A stretch of 58,116 nucleotides of DNA, from NCBI GenBank assembly GCA_049970015.1, contig JBMFNT010000002.1, positions 1-58,116 of the forward strand, written 5' to 3'. The notes under the pieces were generated by a model. The model had not been told where the DNA came from and ran no database searches. It saw nothing but the letters and a program-made list of their open reading frames with translations. The translations under genes and the position numbers were made by a program. Source of the stretch: Candidatus Micrarchaeia archaeon. Its GTDB lineage: Archaea; Micrarchaeota; Micrarchaeia; CAILAH01. Positions 1 to 47,410 of the stretch are shown here, in pieces. The number at the start of each line of letters is the position of its first letter. Position 1 is the first letter of the stretch.

Positions 1-235
1 ACTGAGGGGGGATACTTCCCCCCGCGGTTGTCTTCCCAAGGAAACCGGTAGGGGGTGGAACCCCCTGCGGTTGGCTTCCCCATTTATTGAGAGGGGGAGT
101 CAGGAATCCCAAGGAAACTAGAGGGGGACCCTTCCCCCTCTGGTTGGCTTCCCGAAGAAAGGTACGGGGGTAGCTGGAATCCCAAGGAAACCGGTAGGGG
201 GTGGAACCCCCTGCGGTTGGCTTCTCCCTTCTTCT
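1..235 (-). repeat. Modular array of GC-rich G5-loop-C5 hairpin units directly downstream (minus strand) of the tRNA-Ala 5' half; runs off the window edge
   Basis: Six units of gggggN5-8ccccc, each followed by gcggttggcttccc and/or aaggaaaccggta. A 43-nt exact direct repeat, cccaaggaaaccggtagggggtggaaccccctgcggttggctt, occurs at 35-77 and 181-223 (146-nt period). G+C is visibly above the flanking DNA. Confidence 0.8.
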
Positions 236-241
236 CCTCTT

Positions 242-277
242 TGCGAAGGCGGCGTCATACCATTAGACCACGAGCCC
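242..277 (-). tRNA. tRNA-Ala(CGC) 5' half (positions 1-37 only); 3' half not in window
   Basis: The reverse complement reads GGGCUCG-UG-GUCU-AAUGGUA-UGAC-G-CCGCC-UUCGCA(A). U8, A14, G18G19, A21 and U33 are present, the D stem is 3 bp plus a U-U, and the anticodon is CGC. The sequence after position 37/38 is not the GGCGG needed to close the anticodon stem. Confidence 0.75.
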
Positions 278-301
278 AGCACCATTTTTCAACAATGGAA
301 C

Positions 302-309
302 TATATATG
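302..309 (-). promoter_or_regulatory. TATA box for the tRNA-Ala 5' half
   Basis: GCATATATAG on the minus strand, centred about 28 nt upstream of tRNA position 1 (277). Confidence 0.5.
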
Positions 310-361: not shown

Positions 362-1735
362 ATGCTCAGCGAAAAGAAAGAGGAGTGTGGCATAGTTGGC
401 ATCTATTCTAAGAATCGCAAGAATATTTCTTATCATATTTACAGATCACTGCTTGCTTTACAGCATCGTGGCCAGGATGCAGCGGGCATTGCTCTAACTA
501 ATGGAAGAGTGGCGTTTGTTCATAAGGGCATAGGTACTGTGAACGAGGTGTTCAAGCACAATGATCTTCTTGTGGAGGGGTATATTGGTATTGGGCATAC
601 CCGCTATTCAACGACTGGTGGGTATTCACAGCTTGATGCGCAACCTTCACAAGTGCGTGACATTGCAGTAGCACATAACGGCCACATAGCAAATCAGGAT
701 ATTGTGAGGCGGATGCTTGAGCGTTTTGGGTATATTTTTACGAGCACAGTTGATTCTGAGACCATAGCATACCTTCTTGACAGCGTTCTGAGGGAAGGTG
801 CAAGCATAAAATATGCAATCATGAACCTTATGGATACTCTCGATGGGGCCTATTCAGATGTTGCAATAATTGGCAGTGCACTGGTTGTGTTCAGGGATCC
901 GCATGCCATACGCCCGCTTGTATGGGGCGAGAATGACGATTACATATGTTTTGCTTCTGAGAGTGTAGCGCTTGACATAAACGGCATTGAGTATAAGGGC
1001 ACTGTTAAAGGTGGAGAGCTTGTTATAGTTAATGAGGGTGGTATGCATAGGGAGATGATAAAGGAGGCAGAAACCCGCCATTGTATGTTTGAGTATGTGT
1101 ACTTTTCACGGCCTGATTCCTGTATAAATGATAGATATGTTTATGAGGTTAGGGAAAAATTAGGCGAGCAGCTTGCAAGAGAGTACCCTACTAATGCAGA
1201 TGTAGTTGTTGCAGTGCCAGACACTTCCAGGACAGCCGCATCAGCATTCTCCAGTTCTCTTGGTATACCTCTTGTGGAAGGTTTGATAAAGAATAGGTAT
1301 ATTGGCAGAACATTCATAATGCAAACACATGATGACAGGTGTAGTGCAGTATCCCTAAAGCTTAATGTTATAAGAAAACTGCTTGAGAATAGGAGAGTTG
1401 TGCTTATTGATGATTCGATTGTGCGCGGTACAACTCTTAAAGAAATAATCTCTCTTATAAGAAAGGCATTACCCAAAGAGGTTCACCTTAGGATAACATG
1501 CCCACCTATACGCGCCCCTTGTTTCTATGGCATAAACATTCCCACATACAAGGAGCTGATTGCGCATAACAGATCAATTGATGAGTTACGCAAATATTTT
1601 GGTGCCGATAGCATTGGCTACATATCAATGGATGGCCTAAAAGAAGTGCTTGGCAGTGATATATGCACGGGATGTCTGGATTGCAACTATCCTACACGGT
1701 ACGTGATGGAGCTTGCAAAGGTAGATCGTTGTTAA
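362..1735 (+). CDS. purF: Amidophosphoribosyltransferase (glutamine PRPP amidotransferase)
   Basis: Short propeptide then CGIVGIYS (Ntn nucleophile Cys), GHTRYSTTG, and the PRPP loop VLIDDSIVRGTT. The ATG at 362 is preferred over the TTG at 350. Confidence 0.93.
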   Translation: MLSEKKEECGIVGIYSKNRKNISYHIYRSLLALQHRGQDAAGIALTNGRVAFVHKGIGTVNEVFKHNDLLVEGYIGIGHTRYSTTGGYSQLDAQPSQVRDIAVAHNGHIANQDIVRRMLERFGYIFTSTVDSETIAYLLDSVLREGASIKYAIMNLMDTLDGAYSDVAIIGSALVVFRDPHAIRPLVWGENDDYICFASESVALDINGIEYKGTVKGGELVIVNEGGMHREMIKEAETRHCMFEYVYFSRPDSCINDRYVYEVREKLGEQLAREYPTNADVVVAVPDTSRTAASAFSSSLGIPLVEGLIKNRYIGRTFIMQTHDDRCSAVSLKLNVIRKLLENRRVVLIDDSIVRGTTLKEIISLIRKALPKEVHLRITCPPIRAPCFYGINIPTYKELIAHNRSIDELRKYFGADSIGYISMDGLKEVLGSDICTGCLDCNYPTRYVMELAKVDRC

Positions 1736-1743
1736 TTTAAAGG

Positions 1744-1750
1744 TTTTTTT
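1744..1750 (+). terminator. Oligo-T tract after the purF stop
   Basis: A T7 run lies 9 nt after the stop codon. Archaeal termination typically occurs at T-runs. Confidence 0.3.
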
Positions 1751-1754
1751 GCCA

Positions 1755-1964
1755 ATTCCCACATACAAGGAGCTGATTGCGCATAACAGATCAATTGATG
1801 AGTTACGCAAATATTTTGGTGCCGATAGCATTGGCTACATATCAATGGATGGCCTAAAAGAAGTGCTTGGCAGTGATATATGCACGGGATGTCTGGATTG
1901 CAACTATCCTACACGGTACGTGATGGAGCTTGCAAAGGTAGATCGTTGTTAATTTAAAGGTTTT
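1755..1964 (+). pseudogene. Tandem duplicate of the last ~195 nt of purF plus its 3' flank
   Basis: 1755-1964 repeats 1538-1747 at an offset of 217 nt. ORF 1749..1952 is identical to the purF C-terminus from IPTYKELIAHNR to the end. Confidence 0.9.
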
Positions 1965-3091: not shown

Positions 3092-3606
3092 AACACATAT
3101 ATGAACCATAGGATAAGGGCAATTCCTTCAATAGCATACCTTTTCATATCATTTTTTCTTCCCTCCACCACGCTACCGGATGCTATTGCAAGGAGTACAA
3201 TAAAATAGTAAGTTGGTATTAGAGTGGCACTCGCTGCCCAGAGTACACTGCTTACTCCAAAAGGTAATCCCACCAGGTGCAATAGAAACAGAATAATACT
3301 ATTTACGATAAAAGCAATACTGGTTATGTATATGAGCCCAACACTTATTTGCACAAAAGATTTTTTAGCTACTTGTGAGGCAATGAACCCAACAATGCTG
3401 TTTATAGATATTATCGATATACCATTTATTAATAGGTTGATAAGGTAGTTCAAGTACGAAAATTTTGTTGGTAAGGATATTATTATAAGAGCAATAAAAG
3501 ATACAATTGCTGATTTTATCACACTCACATTAATTATTTTGTTTCGCAGGTCCCTTTTTGATGCGAGAAATGCATACACATACTCTTTTATCCATTTCAT
3601 TAACAT
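3067..3606 (-). CDS. Multi-pass membrane protein, unknown function
   Basis: Several hydrophobic helices. Its start overlaps the cyclase stop by 7 nt. Confidence 0.55.
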   Translation of the reverse strand: MLMKWIKEYVYAFLASKRDLRNKIINVSVIKSAIVSFIALIIISLPTKFSYLNYLINLLINGISIISINSIVGFIASQVAKKSFVQISVGLIYITSIAFIVNSIILFLLHLVGLPFGVSSVLWAASATLIPTYYFIVLLAIASGSVVEGRKNDMKRYAIEGIALILWFIYVFYVLSLTV

Positions 3607-4517: not shown

Positions 4518-5892
4518 TTATTCTTCTAAGGTATTGCTGGTACCAGAGTGATTTCGCTATTGCGCTTATGGCAGATGACGGTGATCCATATGTCGGGAGG
4601 CCTGAAGACTCAACAATCTTGAGCAGCATTCGTGTATACTCCCCCCCAGTTGCAACTGATACTATAGTCTTATCAGTCATATTATCTGCTTCCATAACCA
4701 CTCTAATGACTTCAGGGCCCAACCCTACTGTTTGGAACAGCGTTATCACGACGATCGCATCTACACCTTCCTCTTTTATAATCTCAGTCAATACTTTCCT
4801 GTACCTTTCACTGTCTGCATCACCTGTCAGGTCAAGGGGATTGCCCACTACAACATGCCTTGGAAACATCCTTTTGAATTTTCTTATTGTTTTCTTGCTC
4901 AGCTGTGCAGGCCTAAGCCCATTTTTTTCGATTGCATCCATGGCAAGCACTCCATCTCCCCCACCATTCGTTATCACCATTATCCTGTCACCACGTGGAA
5001 GCGGTTGTAAGAACACTTTTAAAAGGTTGAACAATTCATCAAGATTTTCAGCCTCAACTGCACCTGCCTGTTTCAGCATCGAGCTGAATACTTTATAATC
5101 GCCTGCAAGCGCGCCAGTATGCGATTTTGCGGCCTCGGATGCAAGTCTTCCTTTACCTGCCTTGAGCACGACGACTGGTTTTATAGCAGTAGTGCTTTTA
5201 AGCACTTCATAAAACTTCCTTCCATCTTTAACCCCTTCGATATACACAACAATCACGCTTGTGTCAGGGTCATCTCTTAAATATTCCAGCAGGTCTGACT
5301 CATCAATCACTGTAGCATTGCCGTAAGATATAAATTTTGACACCCCTATGTTTGATTCTGCCACTAGATCAAGTATTGTTGAGCCGACCGCACCGCTTTG
5401 AGTTATGAAGCTAATTTTGCCTACTTGCGATCTTTTCATTTTGTATGTTGGCAGGAATGTGCTGTCAATATGTTTCTGCATATTTATTATACCGAGGCAG
5501 TTTGGGCCTATCGCAGCAATATTGTACTTTTTACATACCCTTACAAACTCCTCCTCCAGCTCTTTTTCTCCAACCTCTTTAAATCCTCCGGAGAGCACTA
5601 CTGCCCCACCAACCCCCTTCTTTCCACATTCCCTCAATACCTGGTTTACATAAGGTGCCGGCACAGCAATTATTGCACATTCAACATCCCCTTTTATGTC
5701 CAGCACGCTCTTGTAGCAATTTACACCAAGTATCTTTTCAGCGTTCGGATTAACGGCATATATCCTTCCATTGTACCCGCCCATCAGCAGGTTCTTAAGC
5801 ACAGCATTCCCGACCTTTGAAGGGTTTCTTGATGCGCCTACCACAGCAATGGTTTTTGGCTCAATGGCTTTTTTTAGGTCTAGTTTATCCAT
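4501..5892 (-). CDS. acdA: ADP-forming acetyl-CoA synthetase, alpha subunit (CoA-binding/succinyl-CoA synthetase-like)
   Basis: IAVVGASRNPSKVGN, GPNCLGI, and SHTGALAG (phosphohistidine loop). Confidence 0.88.
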   Translation of the reverse strand: MDKLDLKKAIEPKTIAVVGASRNPSKVGNAVLKNLLMGGYNGRIYAVNPNAEKILGVNCYKSVLDIKGDVECAIIAVPAPYVNQVLRECGKKGVGGAVVLSGGFKEVGEKELEEEFVRVCKKYNIAAIGPNCLGIINMQKHIDSTFLPTYKMKRSQVGKISFITQSGAVGSTILDLVAESNIGVSKFISYGNATVIDESDLLEYLRDDPDTSVIVVYIEGVKDGRKFYEVLKSTTAIKPVVVLKAGKGRLASEAAKSHTGALAGDYKVFSSMLKQAGAVEAENLDELFNLLKVFLQPLPRGDRIMVITNGGGDGVLAMDAIEKNGLRPAQLSKKTIRKFKRMFPRHVVVGNPLDLTGDADSERYRKVLTEIIKEEGVDAIVVITLFQTVGLGPEVIRVVMEADNMTDKTIVSVATGGEYTRMLLKIVESSGLPTYGSPSSAISAIAKSLWYQQYLRRISESHA

Positions 5893-5896
5893 ATGA

Positions 5897-6520
5897 TCAT
5901 CTCACAACTCTTACATCAACCGCATAATAGCTGTTTTCGTAGACCACCACTGGGTTAAGATCAATCTCTCTTATGCCTTTGTTTTTGTGCATTATAGAGC
6001 ATATTCTTTTCATAATCTCTGCAACCATATTCCTGTTAATCTTTGGCCCTCCTCTAAACTGGTCGAACACTACATCCGCCTTTGTTTCTCTTATCATATC
6101 AAGTGCATCTTCAGTTGATATAGGGCACAATCTCACCGAAACATCTTTGTAGAGCTCAACATTGACTCCTCCAAGGCCAAACAGCACAACCTCACCAAAC
6201 TGTTTGTCTCTTTTTGCACCTATTATTATTTCAATACCCTTTGGCACGTGCTCTTGCACTAGGAATCCATCAACCATGTATTTTCTTGCAGTGAGGCGGT
6301 TATACATGCGCCTGATTTCAACTGCAACATCCTCTCTTTCAATGTTTGTTACCACTGCCCCAACCTCTGTCTTATGAATAATGTTTTCACCAATGGCCTT
6401 TATGACATACCTTTCCGCATGAAACAAATCCTTTGGCAGTGAGGTGCCTTCTATTATAAGATACTTCGGAAGGTTTATCCCAGCCTTGCTGAAAAGTGCC
6501 AAATCCTCCTTCAACTGCAT
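5897..6520 (-). CDS. acdB: ADP-forming acetyl-CoA synthetase, beta subunit (ATP-grasp)
   Basis: ATP-grasp-like sequence lying directly upstream of acdA with a 4-nt gap. Confidence 0.8.
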   Translation of the reverse strand: MQLKEDLALFSKAGINLPKYLIIEGTSLPKDLFHAERYVIKAIGENIIHKTEVGAVVTNIEREDVAVEIRRMYNRLTARKYMVDGFLVQEHVPKGIEIIIGAKRDKQFGEVVLFGLGGVNVELYKDVSVRLCPISTEDALDMIRETKADVVFDQFRGGPKINRNMVAEIMKRICSIMHKNKGIREIDLNPVVVYENSYYAVDVRVVR

Positions 6521-6524
6521 TCAA

Positions 6525-7235
6525 TCACTTCAGATAAGCAAGCAAAACCGCCGTTACAAGTATGCCAAGCAAAATGATGATGCCAATATAGACCCAATAC
6601 TTTTCAAAATAGTATTTGATGTTTGCGATTATCTTTTGCTCAAATGTAATCTGCGCAGTTTCAGTGCCAAGCGAAATTTCCTGCATGGCAAGCTCTTTAG
6701 CAATCTTGTTCCTCACTTCTGGTGGCGCCTCTATAGTAGGCCTCTCAGCATGCTTTGCCCCGCCACTGGCCTGTACTTCCGGTCCTTGTTCAAACCCATG
6801 TGCAGTAAGCATGACTTCAACAGTGCCATTCTTTATCCTGTAATCAATAAACTTTTTCTTCCACAGCTTGTATATACTGTATGCAACATCCCTGCTATTT
6901 ATATTAAGCAAATTCTCAATTTGTGTAGGATCTCTTACCCCACCTTTTATGTGTCCGAGCACTGCAATATCCACACGGCCAAGGTTTCCTTCAGAAAACA
7001 AGTCAAGCTCTTTAAGAAGCTCCTTACCGCTTTCCGTAATTATGACTGGGCTATTGCCTATAGATGAATGTATATCGACAAACCCCTTAAGCTTGAGCGC
7101 ACCTAAAAGGTTTGCAGCCTCAAAAAAAGTGCTACTTATTTTTGGCCCAAAATTCTCCACAGTTGTTTCAGCATCTATCCTCTTTAATAGTGCAATATCT
7201 ATAAACTCAATGTCGCTCACAATAACAATTCGCAT
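6525..7235 (-). CDS. Hypothetical protein with C-terminal membrane anchor
   Basis: Long ORF that is first in the minus-strand gene string. C-terminal TM segment WVYIGIIILLGILVTAVLLAY. Confidence 0.5.
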   Translation of the reverse strand: MRIVIVSDIEFIDIALLKRIDAETTVENFGPKISSTFFEAANLLGALKLKGFVDIHSSIGNSPVIITESGKELLKELDLFSEGNLGRVDIAVLGHIKGGVRDPTQIENLLNINSRDVAYSIYKLWKKKFIDYRIKNGTVEVMLTAHGFEQGPEVQASGGAKHAERPTIEAPPEVRNKIAKELAMQEISLGTETAQITFEQKIIANIKYYFEKYWVYIGIIILLGILVTAVLLAYLK

Positions 7236-9202: not shown

Positions 9203-11081
9203 CTATTCGGTGAATTTTGAGCTGGATTCAGAGTACACGTTTGAACAAGGGAAACATCCATATAAAGTATTCGTTGAAAATGGAACAGTATACCTGCTTT
9301 TGCGGTATGAGAAAGAGGTGGAGGAATACGTACTGAAAGATGGCGGCCTGAAGCGGATAGGGTCTGTGGGAAAGGAGGGGCTTAATGGAAAGATTATGGG
9401 GCCACCTAAGGATTTTTGGGTTGATGGCGATTATGTATATTTTGTGGACGGTTCAGATGCGATCTTCAAGTTTAGAAAGTCAGACGGCGAGCTTGTTTTT
9501 GTGGGAGACAGCGAATCTTACAAGCCTGTGAATGGGGTTGCAATAGCGGCGAGTGGGGACCATATATACATAGTAGATGCTGAAGCTGATTCAATTATAG
9601 TGCTTTCACAATTTGCGGAGAACAGGTATATATACAATACAAGCATAAATCAGCGGATAGCAGGTGGTAATGCAGCATTTTCATATCCATCTGATATTTT
9701 CATTGAAGATGGGCTTATTTATGTTTCTGATATGGAGAACGATAGGATACAGGTTTTCAATAAGTCCGATTACACATTTGTCTCGTACTACGGGCTTGGG
9801 CGTGGTGGTGCAGTATTGACACAACCTAAGCATGTGGCGGTTGACAGCGATTATGTTTATGTGGTTGAATCAAAGGAAAAGTCAGTGAAGGTGCTTTTTA
9901 AGAGAGATGGGCGGATTGTACGTGAGATAAACAGCTCAGTTTATGGGTTTAAGGATATAAGCGGGATATTTTCTGATGGAAGCAAGCTTTATGTGGTTGA
10001 CAGCGGTTTGATGATGCTTGTGGTGTTTGACATAAACAAGACGAGCCTGCTTGACTATGATGATGTGTACCCATTGTTTGAAAAGATGAACACGTCCATT
10101 AACAACTTATGCGAAACATACTCTGTGGCATACCTTGCCGGCATGACTCAGCAGGATAAGTGCAATTACTACAAAGGTATTGTCAACCAGTCATATTCAT
10201 ATATATTGAACAAGTCATACGATCAAGCATACTCACTGATTACTGGCAAGATGCCTTCGATAGAAGGGGATATCTCATATCTTCAGCCAAGGGTTTTAGA
10301 TTTTCTGTATGGCATGCACTCAAACTATAGTAAAAGGATAAACATGCTTTACCCACAACTGTCAGGTGAGCTCAAAACATCAGCAAGGCAGATCAGGTCA
10401 GACCTTGCCAAGGCAAATTCATCAATATCAGCTGGAAGGTATGCAGAGGCATATATAACGCTCAAAGAGATCGGAGTAAGGATATCTGCGCTTGAGGATG
10501 CAATGGGTGGAGAAGAGCAGGTAGAATCAATGCTTAAAGAAAGATATATCAAGGAATTGAATAACCTAAGAGAAGAATACCAGATCATTGAAAAAGATTT
10601 GTACAAGTATGGGATGAACGATACAGCGCTTAACATAACCTCTCTGTTTGATGATGCAGGCGACCTGCTCGAGAGCGGTGATATAGATGAGGCGTACGAA
10701 GTGATCTTGCATCTGTCTAAAAGCATCTCAGAGGCAGGTGATGATGTATCCTCCAGGAAGAAATACAGCAGTGATGCAAACACAACTATTTATGAAGTGC
10801 GTGCAAGTATTGAGAAAGATCGGGTAATGCTTGAGCTGCTGTTTAAAAACAGGCTTACAGAAATAAATAATTCACTGGCAGATGCAGAAAGCCTGTTGTA
10901 CAGCAACCCTGAGATGGCATATGAATTATCAGGTGAAGCGCGCAACATGTTTATAGAGTTGAAAAAAGAGCTTGATGATACATTTTTCCTGGTTTTTGTT
11001 CTATTGGCCGCTGCCATTTTCCTGATTGCACTTGTAATCCTGCTGAGTTCCGGTATATACTTTATGTTTAGGAGAAAGTAG
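9147..11081 (+). CDS. Anchored extracellular protein with NHL-type beta-propeller repeats and a coiled-coil stalk
   Basis: Signal peptide, repeated motifs such as YVSDMENDRIQVF and YVVESKEKSVKVL, and a C-terminal TM plus RRK. Confidence 0.6.
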   Translation: MRNHIILLAVLFAFFFWPVYSVNFELDSEYTFEQGKHPYKVFVENGTVYLLLRYEKEVEEYVLKDGGLKRIGSVGKEGLNGKIMGPPKDFWVDGDYVYFVDGSDAIFKFRKSDGELVFVGDSESYKPVNGVAIAASGDHIYIVDAEADSIIVLSQFAENRYIYNTSINQRIAGGNAAFSYPSDIFIEDGLIYVSDMENDRIQVFNKSDYTFVSYYGLGRGGAVLTQPKHVAVDSDYVYVVESKEKSVKVLFKRDGRIVREINSSVYGFKDISGIFSDGSKLYVVDSGLMMLVVFDINKTSLLDYDDVYPLFEKMNTSINNLCETYSVAYLAGMTQQDKCNYYKGIVNQSYSYILNKSYDQAYSLITGKMPSIEGDISYLQPRVLDFLYGMHSNYSKRINMLYPQLSGELKTSARQIRSDLAKANSSISAGRYAEAYITLKEIGVRISALEDAMGGEEQVESMLKERYIKELNNLREEYQIIEKDLYKYGMNDTALNITSLFDDAGDLLESGDIDEAYEVILHLSKSISEAGDDVSSRKKYSSDANTTIYEVRASIEKDRVMLELLFKNRLTEINNSLADAESLLYSNPEMAYELSGEARNMFIELKKELDDTFFLVFVLLAAAIFLIALVILLSSGIYFMFRRK

Positions 11082-28353: not shown

Positions 28354-29790
28354 ATGACAAATATAAAATTGCTCAATAACCCAATGGGTACACCTACATA
28401 TGTGGAGTTTTGTTATTCTAAGGATAAAAAGCCAGTCTTGGAAGGCAGTCTGAAAAAGTATTCTGAGAATGCAACAGCAAAGGGTTTTGGGGCATCCCTT
28501 GGAGAATATTTTATAGTTAACGATGGGCTTATTTTAGTTGGTCTAGGTGAAAAAGGCAATTTTAAACCGCGTTTTATAAGAAAAGCAATCTTTTCCGCGC
28601 TCGGGTTTGTGAAGGCGCTTCGGATTGCCACGGTTGCCTTGATGTTAAAGCAGTTTGATGAGATTATTACTAAGAATGCCGTTTACTCCGCATACATGAC
28701 CGAGTATGAGTTTGATAAGTTTAGATCAAAAGAGGAGAAGAAGGAAAAAGGAAAGTTGGAACAAGTTCAACTGATTATTGATGAGAAGTTTAATCAGGCT
28801 ATGCGCGAGGTTGTTGAAGTATCTGAATCGATAAATTATGCACGTACTATTTGTAATACCCCTGCAAATGTGGCCTCCCCGCAATACATGGCAGAAGAGG
28901 CAAGAAAGCTTGCCAAGGAATGTTTATTGAAATGCTCAGTCTTAACAAAGAAAGATATGGAAAAGAAAGGGATGAACGCATTGCTTGCAGTTGCAGCTGG
29001 AAGCGCACGCGAGCCGGTGATGCCAATACTTGAATACTCTGCAAAGAACGCAAAGAAAACAATTGTTGTGGTTGGAAAAGGAATTACATTTGATAGTGGT
29101 GGTATCTCACTAAAGCCCAGTAAGGGTATGGATGAAATGAAGTTTGATAAGAGCGGTGCATGTGCAGTTCTTGGAATAATGCGCGCAGTATCAAAACTCA
29201 GACCAAACGTTAATGTAGTAGGGGTGCTTCCGTGCACAGATAACATGCCAAGCGGTTCTGCAACACGTCCTGGAGATATTGTAAAAGCATACAATGGAAA
29301 GACTATCGAGATACTTAACACTGATGCTGAAGGAAGGCTCATACTTGCAGATGCGATTGCGTATGCGGAGGATAAGTATAAGCCAGATTACATAATAGAT
29401 CTTGCAACGTTGACAGGTGCATGCATTGTTGCCCTAGGTGTTTATGCAATGGGTATGCTTTCAAACGATGACTCGTTTGCAAATACCTTTAAGGAAGCAA
29501 GCAACGCGAGCTTTGATGAACTGTGGCAGTTACCACTTTGGGATGAGTACAAAGATATGATGAAGAGTAAGGTTGCAGATATAAAGAATATATCAGATAC
29601 TGGCGAGGCAGGTACAATAACCGGTGCAGCGTTTATATCAAACTTTGTTTCAAAAGCAAAATGGGTGCACCTTGATATTGCAGGTACGGCACATAGATCA
29701 AAACCAGTGCCTCCATTCGATCACGGGGCCAGTGGTTCTGGCATATCAGTAGTAATAGAAGCAATAAAGATGATTGAAAAGGTAAAATAA
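28354..29790 (+). CDS. pepA: Leucyl aminopeptidase (M17)
   Basis: VGKGITFDSGG and NTDAEGRLILAD. The start could be 28339 instead. Confidence 0.9.
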   Translation: MTNIKLLNNPMGTPTYVEFCYSKDKKPVLEGSLKKYSENATAKGFGASLGEYFIVNDGLILVGLGEKGNFKPRFIRKAIFSALGFVKALRIATVALMLKQFDEIITKNAVYSAYMTEYEFDKFRSKEEKKEKGKLEQVQLIIDEKFNQAMREVVEVSESINYARTICNTPANVASPQYMAEEARKLAKECLLKCSVLTKKDMEKKGMNALLAVAAGSAREPVMPILEYSAKNAKKTIVVVGKGITFDSGGISLKPSKGMDEMKFDKSGACAVLGIMRAVSKLRPNVNVVGVLPCTDNMPSGSATRPGDIVKAYNGKTIEILNTDAEGRLILADAIAYAEDKYKPDYIIDLATLTGACIVALGVYAMGMLSNDDSFANTFKEASNASFDELWQLPLWDEYKDMMKSKVADIKNISDTGEAGTITGAAFISNFVSKAKWVHLDIAGTAHRSKPVPPFDHGASGSGISVVIEAIKMIEKVK

Positions 29791-29807
29791 TTATATGATG
29801 ATCAGAG

Positions 29808-30057
29808 GAGCGGCAAGCAGTAGTCTGCCTTCTGTTTTCAGCAGCATTTGTCTTAGCGCCATAATGGCTTGCACGTTCATTGCCTATAAGGATGGCCGTT
29901 TCATCCAGCGCATGCAGATGTCAGTTTTCTTCATTCCTTTTAGCAAGGCCGGTATCGTTTCTGTTCCGTCCTCTCCTATTACAGGAATATAGGCTCAGCG
30001 TGGGCAGAACTTCCTCAGCGCACCTTTTCTTTCTTGGGAAGAAAGAAAAGCTGCACC
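29808..30057 (-). ncRNA. rnpB: RNase P RNA, catalytic core (the 5' end may lie at ~30367; see findings)
   Basis: On the minus strand, in the canonical order: GAGGAAGUUCUGCCC (rc of 30002-30016, CR-I), ACAGAAACGAUACCGGCC (29947-29964), GGAUGAAACGGCC (29894-29906), and ACAGAAGGCAGACUAC (29820-29835). AGUUCUGCC pairs with GGCAGACU leaving one bulged U, which is the geometry of helix P4. Confidence 0.7.
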
Positions 30058-30357
30058 AAAAGAAAGAACCTCTTCTTTTTGAGAAGAGTTGCACCGAAAA
30101 GAACCTCTTCTTTTTTAAGAAGAGCTGCACCAAAAGAAAGAACCTCTTCTTTTTGAGAAGAGTTGCACCGAAAAGAACCTCTTCTTTTTGAGAAGAGCTG
30201 CATCAAAAGAACCTCTTCTCTTAGTGCAAACTTCTTTTTTTAGAAGAGTTGCACCAAAAGAACCTCTTCTTTTTGAGAAGAGCTGTATCAAAAGAACCTC
30301 TTCTCTTAGTGCAAACTTCTTTCTTCTCTCAAGGAGAGGTGCACCGTCAGCTGCACG
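30018..30357 (-). repeat. Tandem array of ~9 hairpin modules (about 34 nt each, two of ~50 nt)
   Basis: The plus-strand unit is gaaccTCTTCTttttgAGAAGAg(t/c)tgcacc followed by an (g)aaaa spacer. Unit starts are about 30066, 30101, 30140, 30175, 30209, 30260 and 30294, plus the perfect 11-bp hairpin at 30025-30049. Higher-order repeats are 30051-30123 versus 30124-30196 and ~30197-30281 versus 30282-30345. Confidence 0.9.
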
Positions 30358-30388
30358 CCTGCCGCTCATTATAATTTTGATTGATATG

Positions 30389-30396
30389 TATAAATA
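30389..30396. promoter_or_regulatory. Shared near-palindromic TATA box (tataaata) between the MFS gene and the putative RNase P RNA 5' end
   Basis: The centre (30392.5) is 25.5 nt from the MFS ATG (30418) and 25.5 nt from 30367. Confidence 0.45.
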
Positions 30397-30417
30397 GTTT
30401 TTGTATTATATTACCTT

Positions 30418-31581
30418 ATGAGTTCCGATAAGATAGGTAAAAAAAGCGATGGCAAAAAAAGCGTTATACTCCTTAGCATTACAAGTTTTATAAATGATGT
30501 AAGCAGTGAGATGATTCTTCCTATATTGCCATTTTTTCTTGCATCATTTGGTATTACTCCAGTATTCATAGGCCTTGTTGGTGGCGTGAGGGATTCTTTA
30601 TCAAGCTTGCTAAAAGTGTTCTCTGGATATCTTTCTGACAGGATTGGCAAGAGAATGCCTTTCATTTATACTGGTTATTTCATATCTTCAGTATTCAAAG
30701 TGCTGCTTGCATTTTCTCCAACATGGCTGTTTGCCATCATATTTTCATCGCTTGAGAGGATTGGAAAGGGAGTGAGAGATGCTCCTCGTGATGCACTTAT
30801 AGGAAGTCTTATGCCGGAAAGAACAGGGGAAGGGTTTGGGATACAACGCTCGCTCGATACTGCAGGTGCATTTATTGGTACAATTCTCATAATACTACTC
30901 TTTTACTACTTTGGCTTTGAACTGTTTTCAATAATACTGCTTGCAGGGTTTATAGGCCTTCTTTCACTTATCCCACTCTTGTTTGTTAGGGAGGAAAAAT
31001 ACGACAAGGTCACAAGAGGGATGTTTTTTTCAATAAAGAATATTCCGAAAGAGGCAAAAATGCTTATATTGGTGGCATCAGTGTTTACCTTAGCAAATTT
31101 CAGTTATATGTTTTTTATTATGAAAGCGCAGGTCGAAACCGGAAGTCTTATTTATCCTGTGCTCTTGTACCTGTTGTATAACTTATTTTATGCACTCTCC
31201 GCATACCCTTTGGGAACGTTTGCTGACATAATCGGCAAGAAAAAGACCCTGGCTTTGGGTTATTTCATGTTTTCATTTGTCATGTTTGGCATGATATATG
31301 CACATGATATTTTCTCACTTACAGTATTGTTTGTTTTGTATGGTATATCTGTGGGAATAGTTGAAACAATCCATAAAGCATATGTATATGACCTCTCTAG
31401 CAAGGATACTAAAGGTGTTTCGGCAGGAGTGTTTCAAGCATCTATTGGCATAATGGCACTTCCTGCAAGCATAATAGCAGGAGGCCTTTGGGAGATTTCC
31501 CCAGGTTATGCTTTTACCCTTGCAGGCATTTTCTCACTGTGTGCATTGATATTTCTTGCATTCATTAATCGGAAACAATAA
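30418..31581 (+). CDS. MFS transporter
   Basis: About 12 hydrophobic helices and an MFS loop motif, GYLSDRIGKR. Confidence 0.8.
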   Translation: MSSDKIGKKSDGKKSVILLSITSFINDVSSEMILPILPFFLASFGITPVFIGLVGGVRDSLSSLLKVFSGYLSDRIGKRMPFIYTGYFISSVFKVLLAFSPTWLFAIIFSSLERIGKGVRDAPRDALIGSLMPERTGEGFGIQRSLDTAGAFIGTILIILLFYYFGFELFSIILLAGFIGLLSLIPLLFVREEKYDKVTRGMFFSIKNIPKEAKMLILVASVFTLANFSYMFFIMKAQVETGSLIYPVLLYLLYNLFYALSAYPLGTFADIIGKKKTLALGYFMFSFVMFGMIYAHDIFSLTVLFVLYGISVGIVETIHKAYVYDLSSKDTKGVSAGVFQASIGIMALPASIIAGGLWEISPGYAFTLAGIFSLCALIFLAFINRKQ

Positions 31582-32602
31582 GCGAGGCTGCTTTTTTATT
31601 ACCCATACTTTTGTGTGCTATTCTTGATAAGAGCGCAACCCTTTCTTTGATAAATGTGCTCAGAGCAATCTCTATGCCCATTTCAACATTCTCTTGGCAT
31701 ATCCACCTTGGGTCAAGCATAATCCCAGCACCTATTCTTTCAACACCTTTTGCATTGTTAATACGCTCAGTATAATTTTTTGTAGGTATACATATTACAG
31801 GCGTTCCTGCACTTATGGATGACATTATCGTAGTGTGCCCACCATGTGTTATGATTGCGCGAGATCTCGATATTGCTTTTTCAGCATCTTTTCTGCAGAG
31901 TTGGCCATCACCAACCACAGCGTCATATCCGATTTTGTTAACCCATTTCTGCAATCTATCGCTTCTTACAGTATTCTTAACACTGCTGCCACCCATGCTT
32001 ATGAAAATCATATCCTTCTTTTTTGCTGGAGTGAGCAGAGCAGTTGGGCCAACGTGTGTGAATTTTGTTGGACTAAAATAAAGCAAGTTATGGGCAGATA
32101 CAGTAAATGGCGGGCTAAAATCTGGTATTAGTACCATGTTTGATAACTCTACCGCGGTTCTTGACAGGAAATTTGCCCCCTTTTCTATGTACTCGTTAGT
32201 TTTTGGGAACACATACCAAAGGTTTGTGCAGTTTGCAATGTTAATCACCCTTTTTCTTAACATGCGGCCTACAAAAAGCCCAAGAATATATCCATCAACG
32301 ACCAGCACATCTGGTTTTGTTGCAAGTATTATATCAGTTATTTTCTTTATTGCCAGCGGATGAAACCGTTTTATGTTTTGCCACAAGCTTTTACTTATAT
32401 TAACACTATCCTTGGTTGTAAATATCTCTCCTATTTCTGGAAGCGTATATACATTTTCATACCCCTCCTCAATAATAACTTCATAAGGCCTTCCGAACGA
32501 TGAGATGCTGACCTCACAATTGTTTTTAAGTTGGTCTACGATTGGAAGAGACCTGTAAACATGCCCAAGCCCAAACCCATTTATCATAAAATGTACTCTC
32601 AT
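31565..32602 (-). CDS. GT-B glycosyltransferase (MurG/UGT-like)
   Basis: C-terminal HGGHTTIMSSISAGTPVICIP nucleotide-sugar binding motif. Confidence 0.7.
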   Translation of the reverse strand: MRVHFMINGFGLGHVYRSLPIVDQLKNNCEVSISSFGRPYEVIIEEGYENVYTLPEIGEIFTTKDSVNISKSLWQNIKRFHPLAIKKITDIILATKPDVLVVDGYILGLFVGRMLRKRVINIANCTNLWYVFPKTNEYIEKGANFLSRTAVELSNMVLIPDFSPPFTVSAHNLLYFSPTKFTHVGPTALLTPAKKKDMIFISMGGSSVKNTVRSDRLQKWVNKIGYDAVVGDGQLCRKDAEKAISRSRAIITHGGHTTIMSSISAGTPVICIPTKNYTERINNAKGVERIGAGIMLDPRWICQENVEMGIEIALSTFIKERVALLSRIAHKSMGNKKAASLIVSD

Positions 32603-32609
32603 TTTAAGT

Positions 32610-33638
32610 TCACCTTACCTTGAATCTTAGGAGTGCAACCACACCACCAAATGCATTTAACTGGAGTGCAACTTGACTTTCTTCTGGAACTATTAACACA
32701 CTACCACCCTTGCTTTTTACATTATCTATTAGCATTTCATAAGACTCATCAGACCTTACCAGAGAATCCACTATGATAAGTTTTTCTATGGCACCCATCT
32801 CACTGCATTTCTCAACCTCTTTTTTCCCATACGCGCTCAATCCATCTTCCTTACCAATGCTTTTAAGGAACGTTTCAATATCCCTTACTGCAGCGCGCAC
32901 CTGCTCTTCTTCCATGATGTCTCTTATCTCATCGCTCCTTATCACCTCATACACTCCGCTCTTCTCCGCGTTTGATGCACTTACAAGCAGTATCCTTTTA
33001 GCAGTGTCTGGAGATTCTTTTCTTGCAAAGTTGTAGAAGTTCTCTTTTGTAAACCCAGGCCCGCCCAAGATTATCTTTCCATCGATTCTTTTCATTTCGT
33101 TGAGCACTTCATGGAAATACCTGTCAGTTGGTATATTCTTGTCAACCTTTTTACCAGTATTCTCAATCTCAATTCCAAACTCAACACCATACATTCTTAT
33201 TGAGGCAAATGTTGCTTTCTCATCATCCATAACAATTATGTTGAGAATACTTCTTCTGCTTGCTTTTATTGCATTTTCCAATGCCTCGATCTCATAATCT
33301 TTCCACTCCTTTCTTATGCTAACTTCATCCCCTATACCTACATCAATCGTATGGTATGCACCTATGGGTGCAACATACTCTGGGCGTGCCTCAACTATTT
33401 TACCAGTTACTCTTATACTGTTTGAATACTTGCTCAAATCCACTTTCTCCGCCTCAAGTATAACATATATACTAATCCTTTCTTCCCTATTGCTTCCAGG
33501 CGGCTTATACTTTCTATTAGTCCTAGCACTTACGGTTGCACCTTTTGTTATGAGTTTGTAAACATTCCACACATCTTCGAACGTCTCAGGGACAACTGAC
33601 ACTATACCATCTTTCCTGTTTATCTTTGCACGCATCAT
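32610..33638 (-). CDS. pelA: Pelota (mRNA surveillance / ribosome rescue factor)
   Basis: eRF1-like three-domain protein; EDVWNVYKLI and GPGFTKE motifs. Confidence 0.88.
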   Translation of the reverse strand: MMRAKINRKDGIVSVVPETFEDVWNVYKLITKGATVSARTNRKYKPPGSNREERISIYVILEAEKVDLSKYSNSIRVTGKIVEARPEYVAPIGAYHTIDVGIGDEVSIRKEWKDYEIEALENAIKASRRSILNIIVMDDEKATFASIRMYGVEFGIEIENTGKKVDKNIPTDRYFHEVLNEMKRIDGKIILGGPGFTKENFYNFARKESPDTAKRILLVSASNAEKSGVYEVIRSDEIRDIMEEEQVRAAVRDIETFLKSIGKEDGLSAYGKKEVEKCSEMGAIEKLIIVDSLVRSDESYEMLIDNVKSKGGSVLIVPEESQVALQLNAFGGVVALLRFKVR

Positions 33639-46470: not shown

Positions 46471-47115
46471 ATGTCCCTTATAGCGGGCATTGATGAGGCT
46501 GGGCGCGGGTCAGTCCTCGGCCCGCTTTCCATTGCACTTGTTTGTGGTAATGAAGATGATTTTTTATCTATTGAGCTTACGGATTCTAAGCTCCTCACAC
46601 GCAAGGAGCGCGAATCACTTTACCCTGAAATAAGGAAGAAGTTTTACACATCTTTTATTCTTATAACTGCGAATGAGCTTAATGAGCTTATGAGAAGGTT
46701 TTCGCTCAATGAAATAGAGGCGATGAAGGCAGCATACTTGATTGAAGAGCTTCCGTTAAACCCATCACAGGTTTATGTAGACTCTCCAGACCCAATCGCA
46801 GAAAACTTTGGGCACAGGATTTTGAGGCATATGCAAAAAAATGTTTGTATAAATGCAGAGCATAAGGCAGACTTCAATTATCCTGTTGTGAGTGCAGCAT
46901 CTATAGTTGCAAAGGTTGTTAGGGATTGGGAGATCGACAGGATACGGGATGAACTAGGGTATGATTTTCTTTCTGGTTATCCATCTGATGAATCCACAGT
47001 TCTTGCAGTGAAAGAAATGTTAAGGACGGGCAAAGGAATAGAGTATGTAAGGATGCATTGGAGCACGGTTGAGAACATACTGTCTGAACAGAAGAAGCTG
47101 CATGACTATTTCTAG
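46471..47115 (+). CDS. rnhB: Ribonuclease HII
   Basis: GIDEAGRGSVLGPL, DSK, and SAASIVAK. Confidence 0.92.
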   Translation: MSLIAGIDEAGRGSVLGPLSIALVCGNEDDFLSIELTDSKLLTRKERESLYPEIRKKFYTSFILITANELNELMRRFSLNEIEAMKAAYLIEELPLNPSQVYVDSPDPIAENFGHRILRHMQKNVCINAEHKADFNYPVVSAASIVAKVVRDWEIDRIRDELGYDFLSGYPSDESTVLAVKEMLRTGKGIEYVRMHWSTVENILSEQKKLHDYF

Positions 47116-47139
47116 TTTTTGGTTGATGTTCATTTCCTT

Positions 47140-47410
47140 TCAATTATCCTGTTGTGAGTGCAGCATCTATAGTTGCAAAGGTTGTTAGGGATTGGGAGAT
47201 CGACAGGATACGGGATGAACTAGGGTATGATTTTCTTTCTGGTTATCCATCTGATGAATCCACAGTTCTTGCAGTGAAAGAAATGTTAAGGACGGGCAAA
47301 GGAATAGAGTATGTAAGGATGCATTGGAGCACGGTTGAGAACATACTGTCTGAACAGAAGAAGCTGCATGACTATTTCTAGTTTTCGGTTGATGTTCATT
47401 TCCTTTCAAT
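47140..47410 (+). pseudogene. Tandem duplicate of the rnhB 3' third, the intergenic spacer and the last 15 nt of the convergent DHH gene
   Basis: 47140-47410 repeats 46874-47144 at an offset of 266 nt with one mismatch (t/c near 47118/47384). The junction lies at a shared tcctttcaat. Confidence 0.92.

What the first reader, a model, noticed from the sequence alone, without database searches (positions are those of the whole stretch)
29808..30057. Unannotated RNase P RNA core on the minus strand between pepA and the MFS gene
No credible ORF explains the 627-nt gap at 29791-30417. The ORFs listed there are repeat-driven. Read on the minus strand, the gap contains the universally conserved RNase P RNA blocks in the canonical order.
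- GAGGAAGUUCUGCCC (compare CR-I, GAGGAAAGUCC).
- ACAGAAACGAUACCGGCC (compare ACAGAAA..UACCGCC).
- GGAUGAAACGGCC (compare GGGUGAAA-GG).
- CUAAGACAAAUGCUG...ACAGAAGGCAGACUAC (compare AGAUGAAUG...ACAGAAcCCGGCUUA).
The first and last blocks pair as AGU(U)CUGCC with GGCAGACU, leaving a single bulged U. That is the hallmark of catalytic helix P4.
Basis: partly seen in the sequence, partly recalled or inferred. Interest (0 to 1): 0.6.

Follow-up and report, generated by a model that had tools for sequence, protein, structure and literature searches.

The report
RNase P RNA with giant repeat-filled P3
The gap holds this tiny archaeon's only RNase P ribozyme gene, which standard searches miss because about 330 bases of tandem hairpin repeats, related to repeats in the genome's tRNA introns, sit inside one outer helix (P3) and double the gene's length.

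Summary
The minus strand of 29808-30057 carries the conserved core of an archaeal RNase P RNA (Rfam RF00373: 60.7 bits, E 2e-16). That is below the curated cut-off of 84 bits, which is why it is unannotated.

The gene is larger than reported. It runs 30367 to 29808 (560 nt). A TATA box lies 21 nt upstream, as in relatives. P1, P2, the base of P3 and P4 are supported by covariation across nine family members.

It is the only copy in a 0.78-Mb Micrarchaeota genome. That genome encodes Pop5, an Rpp30-like protein and Rpp29, and has no protein-only RNase P.

The unusual part is helix P3. It is 11-99 nt in relatives and 329 nt here (30345-30017), built as a tandem array with 35-, 74- and 85-nt periods. 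Two other assemblies of the same species have an identical core but arrays shorter by 74 and 159 nt.

The innermost unit is a copy of a hairpin module found at least 13 times elsewhere in this genome, mostly beside tRNA exons.

The parts
29808..30367 (-). Complete RNase P RNA gene, 560 nt from the first base of P1 to the last
   Evidence: RF00373 match at 29815-30031. The 5' 30 nt align with P1, P2 and the 5' strand of P3 in eight relatives. Covariation supports the helices. Coordinates.
30388..30394 (-). TATA box (TTTATAC), 21 nt upstream of the G of GAGCGG
   Evidence: Read from the sequence. An A/T box stands at the same 22-nt spacing before GAGCGG in relatives G004, G002 and G003. The promoter function is inferred.
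30358..30367 (-). P1, 5' strand (GAGCGGCAGG)
   Evidence: Pairs with 29817-29808. 100% paired across nine sequences, and 8 of 10 pairs show changes on both sides.
29808..29817 (-). P1, 3' strand (CUUGCCGCUC)
30350..30354 (-). P2, 5' strand (GCAGC)
   Evidence: Pairs with 29845-29841 (GCUGC). 100% paired, and 2 of 5 pairs covary.
29841..29845 (-). P2, 3' strand (GCUGC)
   Evidence: This is the same position as P2 in the Rfam alignment.
30017..30345 (-). P3 element, 329 nt. The basal strands are GGUGCACC (30345-30338) and GGUGCGCU (30024-30017), and they enclose a tandem hairpin array.
   Evidence: Tandem Repeats Finder gives periods of 35, 74 and 85 nt at 81-95% match. The P3 base is 88% paired, with 7 of 8 pairs covarying. 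The element folds on its own at -126.9 kcal/mol, z = -11. Relatives have 11-99 nt at this place.
30017..30064 (-). Innermost module: a hairpin GGUGCA-G-CUUUUCUUUCUU / AAGAAAGAAAAG-G-UGCGCU that abuts CR-I. It is a copy of the dispersed module found next to tRNA exons.
   Evidence: Fold. It aligns along its full length to the module TTCTTTGGTGCAGCTTTCTTAGGCATCCCAAAGAAAGGTGC.
30116..30274 (-). Copy-number-variable part of the array. 159 nt are absent from assembly GCA_049699455.1. 74 nt (30116-30189) are absent from GCA_049972225.1. The placement of the gaps within the repeats is arbitrary.
   Evidence: Three-way alignment A2. Outside the array the assemblies are 99.2-99.8% identical over 7 kb, with scattered SNPs.
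30002..30016 (-). CR-I (GAGGAAGUUCUGCCC). The P4 5' strand is 30011-30003, with bulged U 30008.
29951..29964 (-). CR-II (ACAGAAACGAUACC)
   Evidence: Invariant in the family alignment.
29894..29906 (-). CR-III (GGAUGAAACGGCC)
29858..29868 (-). Short P15 hairpin (GCCAUUAUGGC). The 36 consensus positions that the Rfam model has inside this helix (its distal part) are reduced to 2 nt.
   Evidence: Rfam alignment. The whole family shares this form.
29844..29856 (-). CR-IV (CUAAGACAAAUGC)
29820..29835 (-). CR-V (ACAGAAGGCAGACUAC). The P4 3' strand is 29829-29822.
29784..29787 (-). First run of U in a U-rich tract (UUAUUUUACCUUUUC) 20 nt past P1. It is a possible terminator and overlaps the stop codon of the convergent pepA gene.
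   Evidence: Read from the sequence. The function is inferred.

Best explanation
This is the single-copy gene for the RNA subunit of archaeal RNase P in a Micrarchaeota (DPANN) genome of about 0.8 Mb.

Transcription starts about 21 nt downstream of a TATA box, at or next to G 30367, and runs on the minus strand to about 29808 (inferred). A U-rich tract follows.

The catalytic core is intact (shown). It comprises P1, P2, the P4 pseudoknot with its bulged U, CR-I to CR-V, a reduced specificity domain and a short P15. It works with Pop5, Rpp30 and Rpp29.

Between the two strands of helix P3 the gene carries 329 nt of tandemly repeated hairpin units. Each unit duplicates the 5' strand of P3 (GGUGCA) plus a purine/pyrimidine-tract hairpin. 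The innermost unit is a copy of a hairpin module that also fills this genome's long tRNA introns.

The array most likely grew by slipped-strand or unequal recombination of that module (inferred). It still changes in copy number within the species.

My preferred reading is that the array stays in the mature RNA as a self-folding rod or branched extension that projects from the P2/P3 corner. On this reading it is tolerated because the tip of P3 is peripheral to the active site (inferred, not shown).

The insertion keeps the covariance model from joining P1-P3 to the rest. That drops the score below Rfam's threshold and explains why the gene is unannotated.
For: Identity as RNase P RNA:
- RF00373 gives 60.7 bits and E 2e-16, and it is the only match in the genome.
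- 341 of 401 genomes of the class have one such match.
- Pop5 scores 37 bits, an adjacent Rpp30-like ORF 24 bits and Rpp29 82 bits. No PIN_5/HARP protein-only RNase P was found.

Extent of the gene:
- GAGCGGCAGGCGUGCAGCUGACGGUGC aligns with the 5' ends of eight relatives.
- Over 35 pairs in P1, P2, the P3 base, P4 and P15, 95.3% of cells are paired and 21 pairs change on both sides. 0 of 500 shuffles reach this, and slid controls give 30-54%.
- A TATA box stands at the same spacing in four genomes.

The array:
- Tandem Repeats Finder detects it.
- The 74-nt unit occurs nowhere else in the genome.
- P3 is 11-99 nt in relatives.
- Three independent assemblies have an identical core and arrays of 170, 255 and 329 nt.
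- The basal rod is predicted in all three alleles.
- The element alone has a folding z-score of -11.

The module link: the 18-mer CTTTGGTGCAGCTTTCTT occurs 13 times in this genome outside the RNase P gene (14 with one mismatch allowed) and 0 times in the reversed control. It occurs once in G004, inside that genome's P3.

No strict bulge-helix-bulge motif was found at the borders.

Precedents for repeats or large inserts kept in the mature RNA are cyanobacterial STRR repeats in P12 (Vioque 1997) and the 1149-nt Candida glabrata RNA (Kachouri 2005). I saw only the references and describe their content from my own knowledge.
Against: There is no transcript evidence of any kind.

The same module family sits in tRNA introns, which are removed. 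The genome also encodes a multi-unit splicing endonuclease of the broad-specificity type (PMC3239211). Excision is therefore plausible.

In the Methanocaldococcus holoenzyme, Pop5 sits on the P2/P3 junction and Rpp30 of the partner protomer sits on the short P3 stem. A 329-nt P3 could clash with that dimer.

The single 3' strand UGCGCU can pair with any of six GGUGCA copies. The local 18-bp hairpin is the most stable partner, so the array might topologically be an insert in the P2-P3 joiner rather than a closed giant P3.

All three assemblies carry exact or near-exact tandem duplications elsewhere. The exact copy number is therefore unsafe.
Confidence: 0.62

Rival explanations
1. The array is an intervening sequence that is transcribed but removed. 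The broad-specificity splicing endonuclease would cut it out like the module-filled tRNA introns. The two pieces would then be ligated, or the array would be excised without ligation, leaving a two-piece RNase P RNA held together by P1, P2 and P3.
For: The innermost P3 unit is a copy of the module that fills the long tRNA introns of this genome.

The genome is rich in canonical and non-canonical tRNA introns.

It has a 446-aa endonuclease ORF with two catalytic-domain hits, like the ARMAN-2 epsilon2 enzyme, which cleaves relaxed motifs (PMC3239211).

Array length varies freely between strains, as expected for a part that does not end up in the enzyme.

Removing about 235 nt at the best bulge-helix-bulge-like candidate would give an RNA of about 325 nt, the size seen in relatives.
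Against: The strict bulge-helix-bulge scan found only sliding solutions inside purine/pyrimidine tracts, with G-U-rich central helices.

The base of P3 is one continuous 8-bp helix without bulges.

In tRNA introns the module lies more than 60 nt from the splice junction (my reading of C33), so it is filler and not the recognition motif.

Relatives with 66-99-nt P3 elements keep long closed stems, as expected for a retained helix.

To my knowledge no intron has been described in an archaeal RNase P RNA.
Confidence: 0.2
2. The size of the array in this window is partly an assembly artefact. The real allele would be nearer the 170-255-nt forms, or shorter, and the near-perfect extra 74-nt unit would be a spurious duplication.
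For: This assembly has many two-copy tandem duplications at 98-100% identity, with periods of 50-360 bp. Two of them lie in this window at the 3' ends of ORFs.

The other two assemblies carry a duplication in the pelota gene that this one lacks.

The two 74-nt copies are 99-100% identical.
Against: Even the shortest allele keeps a 170-nt P3 element built of diverged units.

The 85-nt repeats are only 95% alike, so they are not simple assembly echoes.

Short-read assemblers more often collapse tandem repeats than expand them (general knowledge).

This rival concerns size only. It does not question that the array exists.
Confidence: 0.12
3. The gene is a decaying pseudogene disrupted by a repeat expansion. 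tRNA 5' processing would be done by something else.
For: The score is below the Rfam threshold. The insert is larger than the rest of the RNA.
Against: It is the only RNase P RNA match in the genome.

No HARP is present, while Pop5 and Rpp29 are intact.

All universally conserved blocks are intact, and P4 carries two compensatory double changes.

The core is identical in three strains whose flanks differ by 0.2-0.8%.
Confidence: 0.03
4. The repeats encode a small repetitive protein. Gene callers placed ORFs of 71 and 124 aa here in the two other assemblies, and the same frame gives 84 aa in this window.
For: An ATG at 30369 opens a frame across the array.
Against: The frame begins inside P1. 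Its length and C-terminus differ in all three alleles, because the 74-nt indel shifts the frame. No Pfam family is on record for these ORFs.
Confidence: 0.01

Closest known systems
Archaeal RNase P RNA (Rfam RF00373), as in Methanocaldococcus jannaschii, whose holoenzyme structure is solved (PMC6565675)
   Same: CR-I to CR-V lie in the canonical order. P1, P2, P3 and P4 are present, with the bulged U in P4. The S-domain core has ACAGAAA and GAUGAAACGG. It is a single-copy gene, and the cognate Pop5, Rpp30 and Rpp29 genes are present.
   Different: P3 is 329 nt instead of about 15 in the model consensus, so the RNA is 560 nt against 200-330 nt for the class. One hairpin of the adjacent pair before the CR-II block in the Rfam alignment (which I take to be P8/P9) is missing, as is everything distal to P15. 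The score is below the gathering threshold.
STRR heptanucleotide tandem repeats inside helix P12 of RNase P RNA in heterocyst-forming cyanobacteria (Vioque 1997, Nucleic Acids Res 25:3471; reference seen, paper not held)
   Same: Tandem repeats that also occur elsewhere in the genome lie inside a peripheral helix of an otherwise normal RNase P RNA. Their number varies between strains.
   Different: Those are bacterial, sit in P12 of the specificity domain, have 7-nt units and add tens of nucleotides. This case is archaeal, sits in P3 of the catalytic domain, has 35-85-nt hairpin units and adds about 300 nt. Its genomic relatives lie in tRNA introns. Retention in the mature RNA was shown there (my recollection) and is not shown here.
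Oversized RNase P RNAs with extended helices: Candida glabrata RPR1, 1149 nt (Kachouri 2005, RNA 11:1064; reference seen), and CPR bacteria (Lui et al. 2021, PMC8172020)
   Same: The conserved core is kept while peripheral helices carry large extensions. In CPR bacteria the genes likewise fall below Rfam cut-offs and need manual refolding.
   Different: Those are from other domains of life. Their extensions are not described as tandem arrays of one module, and no link to tRNA introns is reported.
Archaeal bulge-helix-bulge introns and the module-filled giant tRNA introns of this same genome (epsilon2 endonuclease of Micrarchaeota, PMC3239211)
   Same: They share the hairpin module (TTCTTTGGTGCAGCTTTCTT...CCCAAAGAAAGGTGC), are tandemly amplified, and sit inside a stable-RNA gene.
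   Different: No bulge-helix-bulge motif lies at the borders of the P3 array. In the three tRNA introns whose exon sense I could read (on contigs C12, C21 and C33) the module is in the opposite sense to the P3 copy.

Membership tests
Archaeal RNase P RNA (RF00373) | Conserved regions CR-I to CR-V in canonical order | tested here: met
   Sequence. Rfam alignment. The blocks are invariant in the nine-member alignment.
Archaeal RNase P RNA (RF00373) | P4 pseudoknot between CR-I and CR-V with a bulged U | tested here: met
   All 8 pairs are 100% paired in nine sequences. This genome has two double compensatory changes in P4.
Archaeal RNase P RNA (RF00373) | Terminal helices P1 and P2 join the 5' and 3' ends, and P3 precedes CR-I | tested here: met
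   P1 and P2 are 100% paired and the P3 base 88%, with 17 of 23 pairs changing on both sides. The 5' strands lie 330 nt upstream of CR-I.
Archaeal RNase P RNA (RF00373) | Score at or above the Rfam gathering threshold (84 bits) | tested here: not met
   The score is 60.7 bits. The alignment skips P1-P3 because of the insert. The E-value of 5.6e-17 for the genome is still decisive. 16 of 41 relatives, and 180 of 401 genomes in the class sample, also have no match above the threshold.
Archaeal RNase P RNA (RF00373) | Single essential gene accompanied by Pop5, Rpp30, Rpp29 and Rpp21 | tested here: met
   One RNA match. Pop5 and Rpp29 score above their cut-offs. An Rpp30-like ORF lies next to Pop5 but is weak at 24 bits. 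Rpp21 was not searched. No HARP was found.
Archaeal RNase P RNA (RF00373) | Transcribed and able to cleave pre-tRNA 5' leaders | not testable with these tools
Tandem-repeat expansion of a peripheral RNase P RNA helix (STRR type) | Head-to-tail repeats inside a helix that is dispensable for catalysis, with the conserved core unaffected | tested here: met
Tandem-repeat expansion of a peripheral RNase P RNA helix (STRR type) | Repeats are present in the mature, active RNA | not testable with these tools
   No RNA data are available.
Archaeal bulge-helix-bulge intron | Two 3-nt bulges separated by a 4-bp helix at the exon-intron borders | tested here: not met
   The strict scan gave 69 hits, all sliding registers in low-complexity tracts and none at the base of P3. 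Relaxed motifs cut by epsilon2 enzymes cannot be excluded.
Archaeal bulge-helix-bulge intron | A spliced product exists | not testable with these tools

The most novel reading that the evidence does not exclude
One hairpin-module family (core CUUUGGUGCAGCUUUCUU...CCCAAAGAAAGGUGC) would spread and amplify inside the stable-RNA genes of this lineage: in giant tRNA introns and in helix P3 of RNase P RNA.

In RNase P it would not be passive filler. One possibility is that the broad-specificity splicing endonuclease removes it, which to my knowledge would be the first intron-like element in an archaeal RNase P RNA.

The other possibility rests on orientation. The tRNA-intron copies are antisense to the P3 copy. 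The predicted duplex is -47 kcal/mol, against -37 for the two separate hairpins. The P3 copy could therefore act as a docking arm that tethers intron-bearing pre-tRNAs to the enzyme.
Probability: 0.2. Interest if true: 0.8.

Novelty: new variant of a known kind. Interest (0 to 1): 0.55.

Why it matters
1. Annotation. An essential ribozyme gene is invisible to the standard Rfam threshold. In the 401-genome class sample 180 genomes have no match above the cut-off, and 60 of these have no match at all. Claims that RNase P RNA is missing from DPANN genomes therefore need lowered thresholds and manual joining of P1-P3.

2. RNA evolution. A genome under extreme reduction carries a ribozyme whose non-catalytic insert is larger than the ribozyme itself and still changes in size within the species. 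This is a live example of expansion-segment growth by tandem duplication.

3. Structure. P3 is where the archaeal holoenzyme dimerises through Rpp30 (PMC6565675), and it is the helix that eukaryotes expanded. A 329-nt P3 predicts a changed quaternary structure.

4. The module shared with tRNA introns points to a process that targets stable-RNA genes and has not been described.

Tried and rejected
- A default Rfam scan of the window found nothing. ARAGORN found no tRNA in the window.
- The dispersed-element idea for the 74-nt unit was rejected. BLAST of the unit against the genome gave only chance 14-15-mers. A link appeared only at the level of the about 45-nt module.
- A strict bulge-helix-bulge scan gave only low-complexity sliding hits.
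- A search for closer relatives failed. The exact CR-I pattern in metagenome and genome collections returned 23 loci, none with the array unit and only one (L063, a Pirellulales bacterium) with the P2/P3 motif, which I did not inspect. The MFS neighbour has no homologue above 53% identity among 5.8 billion proteins apart from the species' own three contigs. Four contig look-ups gave only G003's locus again or loci without synteny.
- The 12 lowest-scoring RNase P matches of the class have no tandem arrays nearby.
- Rfam also cannot bridge the 170-nt allele and gives the same 60.7 bits.
- The insulation test was not decisive: 18 expected pairs between array and core, against 35 +/- 22 for shuffled arrays.
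- A regex search for a split-tRNA partner (GGGCCCG plus the module) found nothing.
- The Vioque 1997 and Kachouri 2005 papers are not held in the library.

Full report
**Observation.** The default Rfam scan of the whole window reports nothing. A sensitive scan of 29700-30450 gives one strong match: RF00373, archaeal RNase P, at 29815-30031 on the minus strand, with 60.7 bits and E 2.3e-16. All other matches are noise from the repeats, with E above 0.004. The same match is the only one in the 783-kb, 72-contig, 90%-complete genome (E 5.6e-17). The gene is unannotated only because its score lies below the curated 84-bit cut-off.

**True extent.** The covariance-model alignment deletes P1-P3 and starts at CR-I. 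Further upstream the minus strand reads GAGCGGCAGG CGU GCAGC UGAC GGUGCACC (30367-30338). In an alignment with the RNase P RNAs of all eight other species of the family, this segment aligns column for column with their 5' ends, GAGCGG..GG..CAGCU.ACGG. The 3' end CUUGCCGCUC (29817-29808) is complementary to it.

I wrote out P1 (10 bp), P2 (5 bp), the base of P3 (8 bp), P4 (8 bp, pseudoknot) and P15 (4 bp), then counted the pairs on that alignment.
- 95.3% of cells are paired.
- 21 of 35 pairs show changes on both sides.
- 0 of 500 shuffles reach the observed values.
- Sliding the partner by 1-3 columns drops pairing to 30-54%.

P4 is 100% paired. In this genome it carries two double substitutions (G-C to U-A and C-G to U-A), which is what a functional ribozyme under selection should show.

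A TATA box (TTTATAC, 30394-30388) stands 21 nt before the first G. Relatives G004, G002 and G003 have an A/T box 22 nt before their GAGCGG. The primary transcript therefore most likely starts upstream of the repeats and includes them. A U-rich tract follows P1. The gene is thus 30367 to 29808, 560 nt.

**Context.** Earlier notes of this scan place the genome in the Micrarchaeota. I did not check the taxonomy myself, but the nearest homologues of the neighbouring MFS protein are named Micrarchaeota. The genome encodes Pop5 (37 bits), an adjacent weak Rpp30-like ORF (24 bits) and Rpp29 (82 bits). It has no PIN_5/HARP protein-only RNase P. This RNA is therefore the organism's only detectable means of tRNA 5' maturation. 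In a sample of 401 genomes of the class, 341 have one RF00373 match, typically 200-330 nt long.

**The unusual part.** Between the 5' strand of P3 (30345-30338) and its 3' strand (30024-30017) lie 313 further nucleotides, which makes a P3 element of 329 nt. Tandem Repeats Finder reports periods of 35, 74 and 85 nt at 81-95% match. In the relatives the same element is 11 nt (G003, G001), 23 nt (G002), 44 nt (G007), 66-81 nt (G008, G004, G006) and 99 nt (G005). P3 is thus a variable helix in this family, and this genome is the extreme.

Each unit repeats GGUGCA, the 5' strand of P3, followed by GAAGAG/CUCUUC-type stems and A-rich linkers. Two units contain UUUGCACUAAGAGAAGAGG, which is complementary to CUUUCUUUUGGUGCAG. 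The element alone folds at -126.9 kcal/mol (z = -11).

With P1, P2 and the base of P3 enforced, all alleles share one basal rod of about 45 bp, and the variable units sit at its tip. The single 3' strand UGCGCU can also pair with the nearest GGUGCA. That forms an 18-bp hairpin (30057-30017) right next to CR-I. The array could therefore be either a closed giant P3 or an insert at the boundary between the P2-P3 joiner and P3. I cannot tell which.

**Is the array real?** The identical MFS protein led to two other NCBI assemblies, GCA_049699455.1 and GCA_049972225.1. Over 7 kb they are 99.2-99.8% identical to the window, with scattered SNPs, so they are independent strains or populations. Promoter, core and flanks of the RNase P gene are identical in all three, but the array is shorter by 159 nt (85 + 74) and by 74 nt. 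The array therefore exists in three assemblies, with P3 elements of 170, 255 and 329 nt.

Caution is needed on the exact number. This assembly has many two-copy tandem duplications at 98-100% identity elsewhere. Two of them are in the window, at 1538-1964 and 46873-47410. The other two assemblies have a duplication in the pelota gene that this one lacks. The length differences may thus be true polymorphism, collapse or echo.

The ORF that gene callers place here starts inside P1. It is 84, 71 and 124 aa in the three alleles, with different C-termini, so it is not coding.

**Origin of the units.** The 74-nt unit has no other copy in the genome. The innermost unit, UUCUUUUGGUGCAGCUUUUCUUUCUUCCCAAGAAAGAAAAGGUGC, does align along its whole length with a dispersed module, TTCTTTGGTGCAGCTTTCTTAGGCATCCCAAAGAAAGGTGC. 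Both fold into the same hairpin with a G-G mismatch.

The module core CTTTGGTGCAGCTTTCTT occurs 13 times in this genome outside the RNase P gene (14 with one mismatch allowed), against 0 for the reversed control. It occurs once in G004, exactly inside that genome's RNase P P3, and once each in G008 and G003.

In this genome the copies lie beside tRNA exons, often at contig ends. Examples are a Trp-like 5' half on C12 and 3' halves on C33 and C21. In G008 and G003 the module lies in an intron within the T-loop (my reading of the sequences).

ARAGORN finds only 17 tRNAs, several with introns of 140-203 nt that are themselves tandem arrays. The window's own left end holds a repeat-filled tRNA-Ala intron. 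The P3 array and the giant tRNA introns are therefore built from one module family.

In the three tRNA introns whose exon sense I could read, the module is more than 60 nt from the splice junction in the one case where I could measure it (C33), and it lies in the sense opposite to the P3 copy.

For retention:
- The P3 base is an uninterrupted helix.
- A strict bulge-helix-bulge scan found only sliding solutions in low-complexity tracts.
- Relatives with 66-99-nt P3 elements keep long closed stems.
- In tRNA introns the module is filler, not the splice signal.
- Repeats and large inserts are known to be kept in mature RNase P RNAs of cyanobacteria and yeast (references seen; content from my own knowledge).

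For removal:
- The module's other homes are introns.
- The genome encodes a 446-aa endonuclease with two catalytic-domain hits, like the broad-specificity three-unit enzyme of Micrarchaeum (PMC3239211).
- In the Methanocaldococcus holoenzyme, Pop5 sits on the P2/P3 junction and Rpp30 of the partner protomer rests on the short P3 stem (PMC6565675). A 329-nt P3 may therefore interfere with the dimer.

I put retention at about 0.6 and excision at about 0.2. I give about 0.12 to the reading that the size in this window is inflated by assembly.

**Comparison and novelty.** The object is a member of the archaeal RNase P RNA family by every structural criterion tested. The one failure is the curated score, and the insert explains that. 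The closest precedents for the insert are these:
- STRR repeats in P12 of cyanobacterial RNase P RNA.
- The oversized yeast RNA.
- The extended helices of CPR bacteria, whose RNase P RNAs likewise fall below Rfam cut-offs (PMC8172020).

Earlier notes of this scan describe several CPR cases with hairpin repeats in P3. I did not check them. I found no paper on RNase P RNA of DPANN archaea with such an insert.

The following features appear to be new:
- An archaeal host.
- The location in P3.
- The unit size and the total of 329 nt, which is 59% of the gene.
- Variation in length within the species.
- Homology to tRNA-intron modules.

No closer relative exists in the collections searched. The 12 weakest RNase P matches of the class carry no arrays.

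Noticed in passing
window 1538-1964 and 46873-47410; genome-wide in G000: There are exact or near-exact two-copy tandem duplications of 217 and 266 bp at the 3' ends of ORFs. Dozens more occur across the 783-kb assembly, with periods of 50-360 bp and 98-100% identity. They are either assembly or merging artefacts, or an unusually high rate of recent tandem duplication.
   Followed up: partly
L043 about 5183-5547 and L044 about 5183-5561 (pelota gene, equivalent to window about 32600-32740): Both other assemblies of the species carry a tandem duplication that splits the pelota gene into a long ORF plus fragments of 37-41 aa. The window has an intact gene. Tandem duplications therefore differ between assemblies.
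   Followed up: no
G000 contigs C1:63662, 63715, 82888, 82992; C7:28923, 29088, 29137; C12:100; C21:74; C22:10856; C27:17; C28:53; C33:4437: A dispersed module of about 45 nt (CTTCTTTGGTGCAGCTTTCTTAGGCATCCCAAAGAAAGGTGC) occurs at least 13 times, mostly beside tRNA exons and often at contig ends. It probably breaks the assembly inside giant tRNA introns.
   Followed up: partly
G000 C1:~63750-63900, C1:~83030-83092, C28:~150-240, C22:~10870-10950: Some tRNA bodies lack the 5' acceptor strand and are preceded by the module in the same sense. A tRNA-Ile 5' part runs from its T-loop into module copies with no 3' exon nearby. These could be split or trans-spliced tRNAs, very long introns, or chimeric joins.
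   Followed up: partly
window 1-309 (minus strand): A tRNA-Ala 5' half is followed by a G+C-rich hairpin array with a 73-nt period (Tandem Repeats Finder: 2.6 copies, 71% match). It shares the connector GTCAGGAATCCCAA with the dispersed module loci.
   Followed up: partly
G000 C7:~28770-28890 and C22; relatives G008 C45:~6480-6600, G003 C49:~3350-3420: tRNA genes carry an intron inside the T-loop (after GUUCAAA). In G008, G003 and C22 the intron begins (G/U)GCACCUUUCUUU and contains the module. The junction is conserved across three genera of the family.
   Followed up: partly
G000 C3:30389-30865 (minus strand): A single 446-aa ORF has two tRNA-intron-endonuclease catalytic-domain hits (78.6 and 27.8 bits). 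This is consistent with the three-unit epsilon2 enzyme described for ARMAN-2.
   Followed up: no
G000 small contigs C42, C46, C53, C55, C57, C58, C61, C63-C65: CRISPR arrays with the repeat GTTTCAATCCTACATTAGTCTTGTTCTAAC are scattered over many short contigs.
   Followed up: no
L032 (G001) about 1338-1642; alignment A1 columns 597-680: Seven of the eight other family members (all but G002) carry a hairpin of about 20-35 nt between the 3' strand of P2 and CR-V, which this genome lacks; G002 has only a 12-nt stretch there. In G001 it is expanded to about 75 nt. In the more distant G029 (family f11) there is an insert of about 70 nt at the same place. This is a second variable site in these RNase P RNAs.
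   Followed up: no
class sample: In the 401-genome class sample 180 genomes have no RF00373 match above the gathering score, and 60 of these have no match at all. Family f15 is especially divergent, with E from 1e-7 to 1e-12. RNase P RNA is systematically under-annotated in this class.
   Followed up: partly
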